A stretch of 64,000 nt of DNA from a virus. Shown here piece by piece: positions 1,479 to 47,867 of this stretch. Position numbers and translations under genes: made by a program. Position 1 is the stretch's first letter. Each line of letters opens with the position of its first letter. The notes beneath the pieces were generated by a model, which was not told the origin of the DNA, made no database searches, and saw only the letters and a program-made list of their open reading frames with translations. Location of the stretch: IMG/VR virus record IMGVR_UViG_3300015264_000002, positions 1,210 to 65,209 of that record. The stretch is one strand, 5' to 3'.

Positions 1479-3308
1479 ATGCGGCCGCGCACGACGCTCG
1501 CTCTGGCGCTGGTCCTCGGGCTCGGGCTGTTCGCGCTACGGCTGGCGACGGATCTGGGCCAGTCGGACAGCGAGGCGCAGTACAATCGCAACGCGGGGGG
1601 CAGCGGGGGCAATGGTCCGACCGGGCCGACGGGGCCGACCGGCGCCACCGGCGCGACGGGACCTACTGGCGCGACCGGGGGCGCGGGCGCCACGGGCCCA
1701 ACCGGACCCACCGGCCCGACGGGGAGCACGGGGGCGACGGGACCGACAGGCCCCGGATTGCTAACGACCCCATTCGCGACCCCCTTCGGGCCGGCACAGG
1801 TGGCGACCTCCGCGATGGTGGGCGGCGAACTCTGCGTCTGCCAGTTGGGGGTAACGCCGCCGCACGCCGGGATCGACAGGGTTGGGCTGGCCATGTCTCA
1901 GGTGGGGGGCGGCACCGTCAGCGAGGTTGGCGTGTTCTCCCTCAGCGGCGCGACGCGCTATGTGCGGGCCTCGCTGCGGCCCGTCCCGATCGGCGACGGC
2001 GGCCCCGCGGTGCTTGCAGCGATGGCCCCGGTAGGCGTCGGGACGGACGGGAGCGGCAACCTCTACATCGCGGACGTTGCGCTGAACGGCATCCGTCGCG
2101 TGGATCACGCAACCCAGACCATCACGAGCATCGCGGGACAGCCACCCACCTCGGGCTTTGCCGGGGATGGCGGCGTGGCGACGAGCGCCTTGCTGAGGAC
2201 CCCGACGGACATTGACCACGATGGCAGCGATTTTTACCTGGTCGATCAGCAGAAGCTCGTCCGGAAGATCGATGGGGGCACGGGCATCATCACGACGGTG
2301 GCGGGCGACCTCGCGGCGAGCGACTGCACAGGCGTCGGCGGCCCGGCAACGAGTGCTGGTCTCGAACTGATCGAGGACGTGGCTCGCGATAATACGACGG
2401 GCGACCTCTACATCGGCGGCCAGGGGTGCCACGTCGTCTATCGAGTGGACGGCACGACCGGCACGTTGACCACGGTCGCGGGGACGGGGACGGGCGGCTG
2501 TACCGGCGATGGGGGACTCGCCACGGCGGCGCAACTGAGCACGCCCTGGGGGGTGATGTTCGCGGCCAACGGGGATATCTATGTGGTCGATCCGGGCTGC
2601 CACGGTGTCCGGCGGATCGACCACACGACCGGCATCATTGCGGCCTTTGCGGGCACGGGGACGGCGGGGAACAGCGGCGACGGCGGGCTGGCAACACTGG
2701 CGCAGCTGGACGTCCCGTATGCGATCGGTCGGAACAGCGTGGGGGATATCGGGATTATCGACGCAGCCGCCGCGGTCCTCCGTCTCGTCGACCACACGAC
2801 GGGCATCATCACCACCCTTGCAGGCACGGGCACGGCCGGATTCTCCGGTGATGGCGGAGCCGCCACGGCGGCGCAACTGACGAGCCCGCAGTATGTGACC
2901 TTCGACAGCGCGGACAACGTGTTCATCGCGGACTTCGGCAACCACCGCGTCCGGCGGATCGACCAGGGAACGGGCATCATCACCACGGTGGCCGGGAGCG
3001 GGCTCAGCGATCCCTTCGGGAGCGGGCTGACGGTCGCCAACCTCGACGCCTCGGCCCCCGTGCCCGGGGGCCCGATCTGGTGGTGCGAAGGCGGCGACGC
3101 GCCCGGCGGGACGCTGGCGAGTCCGCAAGGCGACCAAATCGGCCGCGCGTCGCCGCAGCTAGGGCCGCCGACGGCCTACTTCACGGCGAGCTGCCCTGGC
3201 GGCACGATGCCGGCGACGATCACGCCCCCGAGTCCACTCACGCTGAGCAATATCGACGCGCTGTCCCAGGTGCTTCCCCCTGCGATCAGCTTCATCCGCG
3301 TGCCCTGA
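1479..3308 (+). CDS. Signal peptide + collagen-like + NHL-repeat (teneurin-like beta-propeller) protein
   Basis: ATG 1479; about 15 G-X-T triplets at 1614-1754; repeated GDGGxATxAxL..P..+.D..G.+YIAD..N..+R++D..TG.ITT+AG units. Confidence 0.85.
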
Positions 3309-3354
3309 CGAGAGCCGCTGACCCACGCCGACGCGCCCCCACGACGAGCAGGAT

Positions 3355-3582
3355 ATGAGGGTAAGCCAAGGGCCGTGCGAGACTACGCTGACCGAGAGGT
3401 TTGCTAATCCCGACTGCCGATGTGCGACGTACCCCGGAAATCTCGGACCCTGCGCGGCGTACGAGCGCGGGGGCAGCGGGCGTTGTGTCTACTGCGACCA
3501 CGATGCTGACTGTCACGAGCAGCTTGGGCGGATGACCCCCACTACACAGACTCCCCGCACGGGGTTCCGGCCACCGGGGTGA
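3355..3582 (+). CDS. Small Cys-rich hypothetical protein
   Basis: CxC, CxxC and HxxxCH motifs; fills gap in the operon. Confidence 0.5.
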   Translation: MRVSQGPCETTLTERFANPDCRCATYPGNLGPCAAYERGGSGRCVYCDHDADCHEQLGRMTPTTQTPRTGFRPPG

Positions 3583-45977: not shown

Positions 45978-46754
45978 ATGCGCGGGCGTGCGGCTAGCCA
46001 CGGACGTCGGCGGCGGGCGCCGGCGCTACGCGACCGGGTCGTGGCCTTCCGTCGCGTGCGGGCGGCCGACGTCCTGGTCAACCCCGCCAACTACCGGCGG
46101 CACCCGGAGGAGCAGCGGGAGGCGCTGCGCGCGGTGCTGCGCGAGGTGGGGTTTGCGGGTGCCCTGCTGGTGCGCCGCGATCGCCGCGGGCGGCTGGTGC
46201 TGATCGACGGGCAGATGCGCCGCGACGACAACCCCGACGCGCTACTGCCTACGCTGGTCACGGACCTGACGGCGCGCGAGGCGGAGCTGCTGCTGGCAAC
46301 GTACGACCCGCTGGGCGCCATGGCCCGGCGGGACGAGGGGCAGCTGCGGGCGCTGCTGGCCCGGGTGCGGACGGACGAGGCGGCGCTGCGCGTGCTGCTG
46401 GATCGCCTGGCGTCGGGCTCGAGCGCAACGCCGGCGGCTGCGATCCCGGCCGGCCCGTCGCTGGCCGACCGCTTCCTGGTCCCGCCCTTCACCGTGCTGG
46501 ACGCGCGCCAGGGATACTGGCAGGAGCGCAAGCGGCAATGGCTGGCCCTGGGGATCCGGTCGGAGATCGGGCGCGGGGGCGAGGCGGCGTCAGCGTTCAA
46601 GACCGCCGGGGATCAGCCGACGCGGCAGCTGATGCGTGGCCGGGGCGGCAAGCGGGCGGCGTTCCACGGGCCAGGCCGCCGCGATACGATCAGCCAGGAG
46701 ATGGCCAAGCGCGGGGGCCGGCGTGGCGCCGATCAGCCGCTGGTGCCGTCGTGA
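45978..46754 (+). CDS. ParB-like N-domain + N-terminal segment of DNA methyltransferase
   Basis: NP.NYR.HP..Q..AL...L.EVG.....LIDG..R; L.DRF.VPPF.VLDARQGYWQ.RKRQW..LGI.SE.GR. Confidence 0.75.
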   Translation: MRGRAASHGRRRRAPALRDRVVAFRRVRAADVLVNPANYRRHPEEQREALRAVLREVGFAGALLVRRDRRGRLVLIDGQMRRDDNPDALLPTLVTDLTAREAELLLATYDPLGAMARRDEGQLRALLARVRTDEAALRVLLDRLASGSSATPAAAIPAGPSLADRFLVPPFTVLDARQGYWQERKRQWLALGIRSEIGRGGEAASAFKTAGDQPTRQLMRGRGGKRAAFHGPGRRDTISQEMAKRGGRRGADQPLVPS

Positions 46755-46981
46755 CGGTAGCGGGCGCGCAGCGCGGCGATCCCCGCGGTGACCGCCGCCA
46801 GGGGATCGCGGCCAACCTGGGCGTAGAAGCGCGGGTGCACCAGCGCCTCGTGCCCGCGCACGATCGCGTCGCGGTGCGGGCCGAGGCGCGGGAAGCGGGC
46901 GGCCAGGGCGAGCGCCCGCGGCCAGTCGCCGGCGGCCATGTAGGCGTGCAGCTGGTCGATCTTGCGGGGCGGGGTGGCCAT
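46733..46981 (-). CDS. Conserved small phage protein on antisense strand
   Basis: K...L..M..GDW..AL..AA.FPRLG....AI.RGH.A..HP.FY.Q+G.DP.....GI.AL..RY; RBS GGGAG. Confidence 0.7.
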   Translation of the reverse strand: MATPPRKIDQLHAYMAAGDWPRALALAARFPRLGPHRDAIVRGHEALVHPRFYAQVGRDPLAAVTAGIAALRARYRHDGTSG

Positions 46982-47867
46982 GGCTGACAAGCTCCCTACC
47001 AAGTCTCGTGGGCGGGCGTCGAGGGGCAAACAGCGACCGCCCCGCGCGATCAGCGGCGGCGGCTACGGCAAGCGCAGCAGCTTCCTGTTCCGCACCGACG
47101 ACGGCTACGCCGCTGGCGAGGACGCGCAGGTGGCCGGCACCGGTACCAGCATCTTCGACCCGGTCCTGTGCGAGCTCGTCTATCGCTGGTTCTGTCCGCC
47201 CGGGGGCCTGGTACTGGATCCCCTGGCGGGCGGTAGCGTGCGCGGGATCGTCGCGTCGCGCCTGGGCCGCCGGTACGTCGTGATCGAGCTGCGGGCCGAG
47301 CAGGTGCGGGCCAACGACGCACAGGCCAAGGCCATGTGCGGCGCGCCGCTGCCGCGCTGGCAGGTGGGCGACGCGCGCGACTTCCGTGCGGACGGCCCCG
47401 GGGACCTCAGCGCCGTCGCCGCCGACCTGGTGTTTACCTGCCCGCCGTACGCGGACCTGGAGGTGTACAGCGACGACCCGCGCGACCTGTCGACCATGCC
47501 GTACGACGCCTTCCGCGCCGCCTGGGCGGGGATCGTGGCGCAGTCGGTGGCGGCGCTGCGCGCCGATCGCTTCGCTGTCGTCGTCGTGGGCGACGTCCGC
47601 GCGCCGGGCGGCCAGTATCGGGCGTTCCCCTGGCACACCGTGGCGGCATTCGAGGCCGCGGGCGCGGCGCTCTACAACGAGGCGGTGCTGGTCACGGCCG
47701 TGGGGTCGCTGCCCGTGCGCACGGCGAAGCCGTTTGTCGGGAGCCGCAAGCTGGGCAAGACGCACCAGAACTGCCTAGTGTTCATCAAGGGCAGCCCGAC
47801 ACGCGCGACGGAGGCCTGCGGGGCGGTCGACGTGGCCGACGTGCTCGCCGGCGTGGCGTCGCCATGA
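46980..47867 (+). CDS. DNA amino-methyltransferase (N4-C/N6-A) catalytic part
   Basis: TSIFDPVLCEL.YRWF.P, DPLAGGSVRG (motif I), FTCPPY (motif IV), HQN.LVF.KG. Confidence 0.85.
   Translation: MADKLPTKSRGRASRGKQRPPRAISGGGYGKRSSFLFRTDDGYAAGEDAQVAGTGTSIFDPVLCELVYRWFCPPGGLVLDPLAGGSVRGIVASRLGRRYVVIELRAEQVRANDAQAKAMCGAPLPRWQVGDARDFRADGPGDLSAVAADLVFTCPPYADLEVYSDDPRDLSTMPYDAFRAAWAGIVAQSVAALRADRFAVVVVGDVRAPGGQYRAFPWHTVAAFEAAGAALYNEAVLVTAVGSLPVRTAKPFVGSRKLGKTHQNCLVFIKGSPTRATEACGAVDVADVLAGVASP

What the first reader, a model, noticed from the sequence alone, without database searches (positions are those of the whole stretch)
45978..47867. ParB-methyltransferase split by an antisense gene whose start codon overlaps head-to-head
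The FxVPPFxVLDARQGYWQ...SE.GR segment and the TSIFDPVLCE...DPxAGGS...PPY segment usually lie in one methyltransferase chain (from memory). Here they are two ORFs in the same frame, separated by about 225 bp that encode a conserved small protein on the opposite strand. Its ATG and the methylase ATG share the palindrome CCATGG (46978-46983), so each gene's RBS lies in the other's coding sequence. This allows mutually exclusive expression or antisense control of methylation, or a two-chain enzyme.
Basis: partly seen in the sequence, partly recalled or inferred. Interest (0 to 1): 0.6.

Follow-up and report, generated by a model that had tools for sequence, protein, structure and literature searches.

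The report
Antisense small gene inside phage methylase operon
A phage DNA methylase made of two separate genes, as is usual in its closest relatives, has a real 82-residue gene of unknown function on the opposite strand between the two, and this small gene accompanies the methylase in many phages, so it is probably an accessory factor and did not break the gene.

Summary
Two same-frame ORFs lie on the + strand. The first (45978-46754) has a ParB-like domain plus the PPFxVLDARxGxW element. The second (46980-47867) is the SAM methyltransferase core. They are separated by 225 nt with four in-frame stops, and this gap encodes an 82-aa protein on the minus strand (46981-46733). The two ATGs share CCATGG.

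The small gene is genuine: it matches phrog_18237, has about 760 representative clusters, and shows coding GC3. It did not split the enzyme, though. Of the 120 closest catalytic-half homologs, 117 are stand-alone proteins, and three sampled relatives have a coupled two-gene ParB | methylase operon without any insert.

The small gene lay within 2.4 kb of this methylase in all 17 distinct loci with adequate flanks. Its position varies:
- antisense between the halves (four lineages, including this one);
- sense between the halves;
- convergent downstream;
- translationally coupled upstream.

I infer that it is an accessory factor of the methylase. Support from complex prediction is weak (ipSAE 0.52, controls 0.00). 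The start-codon overlap is unique to this phage. It may give mutually antagonistic expression, but this is untested.

This is a new variant of a known kind, of moderate interest.

The parts
45978..46754 (+). Gene 1 of the methylase (N-half). It has a divergent ParB-like N-terminal domain, then a conserved strand-helix element and an R/G-rich tail. Alternative starts are GTG 45858 and GTG 46041.
   Evidence: It matches phrog_498 positions 36-205. Its homologs are mostly stand-alone proteins of 200-290 aa. 9 of 35 aligned relatives hit Pfam ParB_N, best E 3e-10, but the window protein itself does not.
46473..46577 (+). N-terminal methylase element FLVPPFTVLDARQGYWQERKRQWLALGIRSEIGRG.
   Evidence: It matches phrog_12517 positions 11-64, which join directly to the C-half match at 65-315. 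In the AF2 model of the natural one-chain homolog P0045 it is modelled as a strand plus a helix at pLDDT about 84. A linker with pLDDT below 50 separates it from the core.
46733..46981 (-). Small gene of 82 aa plus stop, a member of phrog_18237. It is a basic five-helix protein.
   Evidence: Family and homolog matches. Coding GC3 pattern. AF2 gives mean pLDDT 87.8. No informative structural neighbour was found. It is the only minus-strand gene in the + block from 43.9 to 64 kb.
46733..46754 (.). Tail-to-tail overlap of 22 nt between the N-half and the small gene.
   Evidence: Read directly from the sequence.
46978..46983 (.). CCATGG palindrome holding both start codons: + ATG at 46980-46982 and - ATG at 46981-46979.
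   Evidence: Read directly from the sequence.
46992..46996 (-). GGGAG Shine-Dalgarno-like site of the small gene, 10 nt before its ATG. It lies inside codons 5-6 of the C-half.
   Evidence: Read from the sequence; its function is inferred.
46964..46977 (+). G-rich stretch (GCGGGGCGGGGTGG), the candidate ribosome-binding region of the C-half. It lies inside codons 2-6 of the small gene.
   Evidence: Read from the sequence; its function is inferred.
46980..47867 (+). Gene 2 of the methylase (C-half), a class-I SAM methyltransferase core. Alternative starts are TTG 46962 and GTG 46974.
   Evidence: Pfam PF01555 scores 28.8 bits against a cut-off of 26.7. phrog_12517 gives E 1.5e-89. More than 7,700 homologs were found. 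The one-chain homolog folds as a Rossmann methyltransferase.
47217..47237 (+). SAM-binding motif I, DPLAGGS.
   Evidence: These columns are invariant or nearly invariant in alignment A5.
47439..47450 (+). Catalytic motif IV, CPPY, with Cys where D, N or S is usual.
   Evidence: C154, P155, P156 and Y157 are invariant in 41 sequences.

Best explanation
SHOWN. The locus is a phage ParB-type DNA methyltransferase encoded as two genes.
- Gene 1 has a ParB-like domain plus the conserved PPFxVLDARxGxWxxRK strand-helix element.
- Gene 2 is the SAM-methyltransferase core, with DPxAGGS and (S/T)CPPY motifs.
- This two-gene layout is the usual one in the closest relatives.
- The break lies in a long linker that is variable and predicted to be disordered.
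- The 82-aa gene on the opposite strand is a genuine member of a large family of small phage proteins (phrog_18237). It sits in that existing gene junction.
- Across phages the small gene is almost always beside this methylase, in four different placements.

INFERRED.
1. The two methylase chains assemble into one enzyme.
2. The small protein is an accessory factor of the methylase, either a regulator or a subunit, and contacts the catalytic chain.
3. In this phage the antisense placement removes the translational coupling of the two methylase genes.
4. A leftward small-gene mRNA and a rightward methylase mRNA would be complementary across both ribosome-binding sites and both start codons. Expression of the small gene and of the catalytic subunit should therefore oppose each other, as in an excludon.
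For: Two-gene norm:
- 117 of the 120 closest C-half homologs lack the N element.
- L033, L034 and L035 each carry a ParB_N+element gene followed directly by the catalytic gene.
- Mae-JY30 has the same layout.
- The N-half's closest homologs are stand-alone proteins.

Both halves are kept intact:
- All motifs are present in four diverged lineages that carry the antisense insert: the window, L005, L018 and L028.

Linker:
- pLDDT is below 50 over residues 67-110 of P0045. The N element scores about 84 and the core above 90.

Linkage:
- A C-half homolog lies 0-2357 nt from the small gene in all 17 non-redundant loci with at least 3 kb on both sides.
- This includes a distant fused family member, L036.

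Coupling:
- TAATG junction in L009; AAGGAG plus a 4-nt gap in L020.
- In L023 an 11/12 sigma-70 promoter sits directly before the small gene, and the downstream methylase gene follows tightly.

Complex prediction, N-half + C-half + small protein as partner:
- Verdict: weak support. ipSAE 0.52 (runs 0.50, 0.60, 0.52); best control 0.00.
- Replacing the C-half with an unrelated protein gave 0.00.
- The runs agree in at least 41% of their contacts, and the partner's pLDDT is at least 79.
- In calibration, the mark was reached by 58 of 80 solved complexes and 2 of 110 mismatched pairs. At 0.60 or under it was reached by only 7 of those 80 solved complexes and by both mismatches that passed.

Literature:
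- ParB-fold fusions with N6_N4 methylases are frequent in phages (PMC12704722).
- A separate ParB protein activates phage T-dioxygenases (PMC13229309).
Against: - There is no expression data.
- The scans found no promoter or terminator in the window. They use E. coli-type consensus sequences on a 73% GC phage, so this says little.
- The complex score falls in the range that the tool calls more often wrong than right unless the prior is good.
- In most lineages the small gene is on the opposite strand from the methylase. That is not the usual layout for an obligate subunit.
- The methylase family has thousands of members without the small gene, so the small gene is not required for activity.
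- The start-codon overlap is not conserved in L005 or L018, so any regulation through it is specific to this lineage.
- The fold gives no functional clue.
Confidence: 0.5

Rival explanations
1. The small gene is an independent passenger gene (a moron, for example a host-takeover or anti-defence gene). It happens to live in the insertion-prone zone between the methylase module and the terminase genes. Its closeness to the methylase reflects shared ancestry and local shuffling, not function. The start-codon overlap is genome compaction.
For: - It is the lone antisense gene in a one-directional block.
- In L007, L013 and L036 it sits exactly between the methylase and terS/terL.
- It has its own near-consensus promoter in L023.
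- Most methylase homologs lack the small gene.
- Complex support is only weak.
Against: - The linkage survives at least four different local arrangements. These include loci where no terminase gene was called in the fetched flanks (L010, L011, L012).
- It is translationally coupled to the methylase gene in L009 and L020.
- The closest small-protein relatives (68-71% identity) lie in three different arrangements, yet always beside the methylase.
Confidence: 0.3
2. One reading: a one-chain ParB-methylase was recently split when the small gene inserted. The result is either a new two-chain enzyme or a disabled one.
For: - One-chain forms exist, and the two profile matches abut.
- The two ORFs are in the same frame.
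- The window's C-half lacks the M.K..ARTFGQDLMRGEH N-terminus that is typical of stand-alone catalytic genes.
Against: - Closest relatives are two genes without any insert.
- The window's N-half ends in the same RG-rich ...P(I/V)PS tail as the stand-alone N-half of L005; L033 has a similar RG-rich tail.
- No target duplication or flanking repeats above the chance level.
- A shared frame has a one-in-three chance expectation.
- The C-half tree is too poorly resolved to order the events.
Confidence: 0.12
3. The methylase is a decaying pseudogene interrupted by unrelated DNA.
For: There are four in-frame stops between the halves.
Against: - Both halves are full-length with every conserved motif and a coding GC3 pattern.
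- The same arrangement is kept intact in three other lineages at 50-60% protein identity.
Confidence: 0.03

Closest known systems
Phage ParB-fold / N6_N4 DNA methyltransferase fusions (PF02195 + PF01555), surveyed in PMC12704722; annotated examples include Enterococcus phage phiFL3A gp36 and Listeria phage B054 gp77
   Same: The same two modules appear in the same order. The C-half is 40-65% identical to these phage proteins. The gene lies close to the packaging genes.
   Different: Here, and in the closest relatives, the modules are two genes. The break falls inside the methylase part, after its N-terminal strand-helix element. Motif IV is CPPY. The window's own ParB-like domain falls below Pfam detection.
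Separate ParB-like activator of phage DNA-modifying enzymes (ParB-dependent T-dioxygenases, PMC13229309)
   Same: A ParB-fold protein encoded as a separate gene next to a DNA base-modifying enzyme acts as its partner.
   Different: That enzyme is an Fe/2OG dioxygenase, not a methylase. Here chain 1 also carries a piece of the methylase itself. No activity was tested here.
Genes in pieces made by an inserted mobile gene (Aeromonas phage Aeh1 nrdA split by mobE; PMC3045599)
   Same: A phage enzyme is encoded as two ORFs with a foreign small gene between them, and the pieces are expected to reassemble.
   Different: The inserted gene here has no nuclease domain or fold and lies antisense. The split exists in relatives without any insert, so the insert is not its cause.
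Excludon-type and antisense control (Listeria excludons, PMC3377988 and PMC4179725; EcoRI antisense RNAs, PMC3141266)
   Same: Divergent genes whose 5' regions overlap, so that one transcript is antisense to the other's ribosome-binding site. In EcoRI, antisense RNAs regulate a restriction-modification system.
   Different: No transcript has been mapped here. The overlap is only 2-20 nt of coding sequence plus unknown 5' leaders. The antisense partner encodes a conserved protein.

Membership tests
phrog_18237 (small phage protein, unknown function) | Full-length match to the family profile | tested here: met
   E 1.6e-12; residues 6-75 match profile positions 3-74 of 75. A profile built from 19 homologs finds 760 representative clusters.
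N6_N4_Mtase (Pfam PF01555) | Score above the curated gathering cut-off | tested here: met
   28.8 bits against a cut-off of 26.7, but only over residues 69-111, the motif I region.
N6_N4_Mtase (Pfam PF01555) | Catalytic tetrapeptide (D/N/S)PP(Y/F/W) | tested here: inconclusive
   PPY is present, but the first residue is an invariant Cys (T-C-P-P-Y, 47439-47450). Whether CPPY supports N6-A or N4-C methylation is unknown.
N6_N4_Mtase (Pfam PF01555) | Beta-class motif order (IV before I) | tested here: not met
   Residues 124-220 match residues 21-117 of 2zie_A. Residues 68-107 match residues 226-265 of 8urk_A. Motif I therefore precedes motif IV, a permuted order. The nearest folds in that order are TrmN, Trm14 and the type I M subunit.
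ParB N-terminal domain (Pfam PF02195) | Match to the Pfam model | tested here: inconclusive
   The window's N-half has no Pfam hit at E below 0.1. 9 of 35 aligned relatives match, best E 3e-10. phrog_498 covers the region. A DGxxR-type motif (IDGQMRR) is visible in the sequence.
Homing-endonuclease 'genes in pieces' insertion | The inserted ORF encodes a nuclease (HNH, GIY-YIG, LAGLIDADG and the like) | tested here: not met
   No Pfam or NCBIfam domain. The model is an all-helical 82-aa bundle with no nuclease-like neighbour.
Controller (C) proteins of restriction-modification systems | Xre-type helix-turn-helix DNA-binding fold | tested here: inconclusive
   No HTH family hit. The structure searches list only generic helical bundles, with Z at most 6.1.
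Excludon | Mapped overlapping divergent transcripts with reciprocal expression | not testable with these tools
   No RNA data could be reached. Only the gene geometry is shown.
Self-splicing intron or other known RNA element in the gap | Match to an Rfam model | tested here: not met
   No Rfam match at E up to 1 in 46300-47400.

The most novel reading that the evidence does not exclude
phrog_18237 proteins are dedicated regulators or subunits of a distinct phage DNA-modification system. The system consists of a ParB-like chain, a CPPY methyltransferase-fold chain and often a PLP-enzyme-like module. Its chemistry may differ from plain N6-A or N4-C methylation. In this phage the regulator gene is wired head-to-head with the catalytic gene, so the two are expressed in a mutually exclusive way.
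Probability: 0.2. Interest if true: 0.6.

Novelty: new variant of a known kind. Interest (0 to 1): 0.38.

Why it matters
Phage ParB-methylases are common, but their mechanism and regulation have hardly been studied.

- **Annotation.** In a large clade the enzyme is normally two chains, broken inside the methylase part. Many "ParB-like" and "DNA methylase" gene pairs should therefore be read as one enzyme.
- **A handle on an unknown family.** The steady association gives a family of unknown function (about 760 clusters) a concrete, testable hypothesis.
- **A natural test case.** The overlapping divergent start codons offer a compact case for antisense or excludon-type control in a phage.
- **Possible new chemistry.** The invariant CPPY motif and the accompanying PLP-like module suggest the modification chemistry is worth checking.

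Tried and rejected
- **Small protein against cultured-phage records:** tblastn found no match, so no annotated context was available.
- **Structure searches with the small-protein model:** Foldseek PDB gave nothing at E up to 0.001. VIA-align gave a best Z of 6.1 to a designed helical bundle, which is uninformative. The Atlas returned only unnamed viral clusters.
- **Larger family members:** Pfam and PHROGs scans of members that carry a C-terminal extension gave no functional domain.
- **Mobile or invertible cassette:** no flanking direct or inverted repeats beyond what a 73% GC sequence gives by chance, and none shared among eight loci.
- **Intron or other RNA element:** no Rfam match.
- **RNA structure over the start region:** z = -1.98 on the + strand and -0.21 on the - strand, not compelling.
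- **Promoter and terminator scan of the window:** zero sites.
- **Temperate lifestyle as context for a moron:** no tyrosine or serine integrase in the complete 65.6-kb genome.
- **Order of rearrangements from a C-half tree:** only 1 of 18 inner branches was well supported, so one or several origins of the antisense arrangement cannot be told apart.
- **PLP-like partner gene in the window:** absent.
- **First alignment for the one-chain model (A2):** it included ParB proteins with a different methylase part, so it was discarded in favour of A3.
Full report
**What is in the sequence**

The window is a complete 65.6-kb virus record with direct terminal repeats and 72.7% GC. On the + strand, one ORF ends at TGA 46752-46754 and another, in the same frame, runs to 47867. 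Read straight through, the + frame has four stops between them. On the - strand the interval is open, and ATG 46981 gives an 82-aa protein ending at 46733. CCATGG at 46978-46983 carries both the - ATG and the + ATG at 46980. The small gene also overlaps the 3' end of the upstream ORF by 22 nt.

**Is the antisense ORF a gene?**

Yes.
- It matches phrog_18237 over its whole length, E 1.6e-12.
- It has 18 homologs at 45-71% identity, with a protein-like conservation pattern: invariant W20, A23, A27, A28, L33, G34, I40, A46, P50, A70 and L71.
- A profile of these homologs finds 760 clusters among 1.84 billion representative proteins, 445 of them at E up to 1e-10.
- The ESM Atlas places it among unnamed, mostly viral clusters of 174-881 members.
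- Its codon-position GC is 0.81/0.57/0.96, the pattern of real genes in this genome. The + frame of the gap gives 0.57/0.83/0.97.
- AlphaFold2 gives a confident five-helix bundle, mean pLDDT 87.8. It has no informative neighbour in the PDB, and no Pfam or NCBIfam domain.
- From its composition the protein looks basic (many Arg, few acidic residues).

**What are the two + strand ORFs?**

- The C-half passes the Pfam N6_N4_Mtase cut-off (28.8 bits against 26.7). It matches phrog_12517 at E 1.5e-89 and phrog_498 at E 6.7e-68.
- The N-half matches the N-terminal part of the same two profiles. In phrog_12517 the N-half covers positions 11-64 and the C-half covers 65-315, so the two matches abut.
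- The motif order is permuted relative to solved beta-class enzymes.
- The AF2 model of a natural one-chain homolog is a Rossmann methyltransferase. Its nearest solved folds are TrmN, Trm14 and a type I M subunit.
- Motif I is DPLAGGS. Motif IV is T-C-P-P-Y, with the Cys invariant in 41 relatives.
- The N-half's first domain is ParB-like by homology. 9 of 35 aligned relatives hit Pfam ParB_N, although the window protein itself does not.

**Is the enzyme normally one chain?**

Not in this clade. More distant cultured-phage homologs are one chain, for example phiFL3A, B054, mycobacteriophages, Erythrobacter phage ZS04 and Pam4. The 120 closest homologs of the C-half (56-69% identity) are nearly all 260-330 aa, and 117 of them lack the PPFxVxD / WxxRKxxW element.

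Three of their contigs show an operon with this order:
- a ParB_N gene that carries the element and an R/G-rich tail;
- then the catalytic gene, joined by TAA+6 nt, ATGA or TAATG;
- then a PLP-enzyme-like gene.

Microcystis phage Mae-JY30 has the same two-gene layout. The N-half's best homologs are also stand-alone proteins of 200-290 aa.

The break lies in a roughly 100-residue linker that varies in length and sequence. In the AF2 model of the one-chain homolog P0045, this linker has pLDDT below 50. The N-terminal element (a strand at 37-40 and a helix at 44-55) scores about 84 and the core above 90.

I conclude that the two-chain state is ordinary and presumably functional, and that the small gene occupies an existing gene junction.

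**Where else does the small gene occur?**

I mapped the three window proteins onto 38 fetched loci. In all 17 non-redundant loci with at least 3 kb on both sides of the small gene, a C-half homolog lies 0-2357 nt away. The loci without one are cut off within 1.7 kb on one side.

The placement varies:
- **(A) Antisense between the N-half and the C-half:** the window, L005 (which also has the PLP-like gene in the gap), L018 and L028.
- **(B) Sense between the halves:** L012 and L023.
- **(C) Convergent, just downstream of a one-chain or split methylase, often before terS/terL:** L007, L013, L015, L016, L017, L019, L025 and L036.
- **(D) Upstream and co-directional:** L009 and L020 immediately upstream; L011 2.4 kb upstream.
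- **Other placements:** L010 (co-directional, after the catalytic and PLP-like genes); L021 and L032 (opposite strand, 1.1-1.7 kb away).

In L009 the small gene's stop overlaps the methylase start (TAATG). In L020 an AAGGAG site and a 4-nt gap link the two genes. In L023 an 11/12 sigma-70 promoter (TTGACA-17-TATATT) lies directly before the small gene.

The four closest small-protein relatives of the window (68-71% identity); the three whose contexts were fetched sit in three different arrangements. The gene therefore moves around the methylase but stays beside it. A C-half tree could not resolve how many rearrangements occurred. I found no repeats that would point to a transposon or an invertible cassette, no nuclease domain and no Rfam element.

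**Does the small protein touch the methylase?**

I ran one complex prediction with the N-half, the C-half and the small protein as the scored partner, each with its own alignment. The verdict was weak support.
- ipSAE was 0.52 (runs 0.50, 0.60, 0.52), against a best control of 0.00.
- Replacing the C-half with an unrelated protein gave 0.00.
- The runs agree in at least 41% of their contacts, and the partner's pLDDT is at least 79.
- In the tool's calibration the mark was reached by 58 of 80 solved complexes and 2 of 110 mismatched pairs. At 0.60 or under it was reached by only 7 of those 80 solved complexes and by both mismatches that passed.

I treat this as a lead. It is consistent with the genomic linkage but is not proof.

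**The head-to-head overlap**

The C-half's head (residues 22-50, AISGGGYGKRSSFLFR...) is conserved in homologs. No in-frame start lies between 46983 and that motif. Translation must therefore begin at 46962, 46974 or 46980, and all three overlap the small gene's start at 46981.

The small gene's GGGAG site (46996-46992, 10 nt before its ATG) lies in C-half codons 5-6. The G-rich candidate ribosome-binding site of the C-half lies in small-gene codons 2-6.

In the other lineages with the antisense insert, the two starts are 40 nt (L018) and 62 nt (L005) apart. The overlap is therefore specific to this phage. The small gene is the only minus-strand gene in the + block from 43.9 kb to the end of the window.

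Two consequences follow by inference only.
- The catalytic gene can no longer be translationally coupled to gene 1.
- Any leftward small-gene mRNA is complementary to the rightward methylase mRNA across both initiation regions. This is the geometry of an excludon (PMC3377988, PMC4179725), and it recalls the antisense RNAs that regulate EcoRI (PMC3141266).

No promoter or terminator was detected in the window, and no expression data could be obtained.

**Comparison with what is known**

ParB-fold fusions to N6_N4 methylases are known to be common in phages (PMC12704722). A separate ParB protein activating a phage DNA-modifying enzyme has recently been shown for T-dioxygenases (PMC13229309). Split phage enzymes with a gene in the gap are known from Aeh1 nrdA/mobE (PMC3045599), but there the inserted gene is a homing endonuclease and caused the split.

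This case differs in three ways:
- the break lies inside the methylase part and is ancestral to the clade;
- the resident of the gap is a non-nuclease small protein that follows the methylase in many phages;
- in this one genome the two start codons interlock.

**Verdict**

The finding is best described as a new variant of a known kind: a two-gene ParB-methylase with a linked accessory gene in an unusual antisense, start-overlapping position. Interest is moderate at 0.38. The split itself is ordinary. The linkage of phrog_18237 to this methylase, and the possible antagonistic wiring, are the parts worth testing.

Noticed in passing
L033:4331-5038, L034:4577-5281, L035:1589-2293, L010:834-1589, L005:3237-3917, L001:3247-3957; in-frame inserts at L002:2726-3463 and L003 about 2792-3496: A PLP-enzyme-like module of about 235-260 aa (Pfam PALP, E 1e-7 to 1e-14) accompanies this methylase. 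It is either the next gene or an in-frame insert between the SAM-binding and catalytic motifs (Erythrobacter phage ZS04, Pam4, L016). In Mae-JY30 it is annotated as 'DNA modification methylase'. The window phage has none. This hints at chemistry beyond simple methylation.
   Followed up: partly
window 47439-47450: Catalytic motif IV is T-C-P-P-Y. The Cys is invariant in 41 relatives, where amino-methyltransferases normally have D, N or S. No paper in the library mentions a CPPY methyltransferase motif.
   Followed up: partly
L023:3957-3985: A near-consensus sigma-70 promoter (TTGACA-17-TATATT, 11/12) lies directly before the small gene in a relative where the gene sits in sense orientation between the methylase halves. 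The distance to the ATG suggests a very short leader or none.
   Followed up: partly
P0264, P0279, P0313, P0335 (context L036:4001-4588): In some family members the small domain is fused, through a KPAKA-rich linker, to a conserved C-terminal domain (PDF..H..FRK...GDI.GLKA...SSS). This domain has no Pfam match and only a weak hit to phrog_24512 (unknown function). P0264 again lies convergent to a split methylase, just before terS/GpA terminase.
   Followed up: partly
window 46041 and 47130: The public gene calls for this record start the N-half at GTG 46041 (237 aa) and the C-half at GTG 47130 (245 aa). The second call omits the conserved AI(S/P)GGG...FR head and so hides the start-codon overlap.
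   Followed up: yes
split relatives: N-half tails in L005, L012, L023, L033, L035; C-half heads in L001, L005, L017, L018, L034, L035: Stand-alone N-halves end in a conserved ...PGGSP.PAADY...RGDGRGRP(I/M)P tail. Stand-alone catalytic genes begin M.K..ARTFGQDLMRGEH (the latter also occurs mid-linker in the one-chain ZS04 protein). These could be the contact pieces of the two-chain enzyme. The window has only degenerate versions (RQLMRGRGG and AKRGGRRGADQPLVPS, both in the N-half).
   Followed up: no
If correct, this stretch of the genome is prone to gene insertion. I did not check it.
   Followed up: no
L023:4217-4250: A run of nine G follows the small gene's stop, at the start of the catalytic gene. 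Two frames there carry linker-like motifs (MAKAIPGGGG and ...HGQDLMRGEH). This could be an assembly error or a slippery tract.
   Followed up: no
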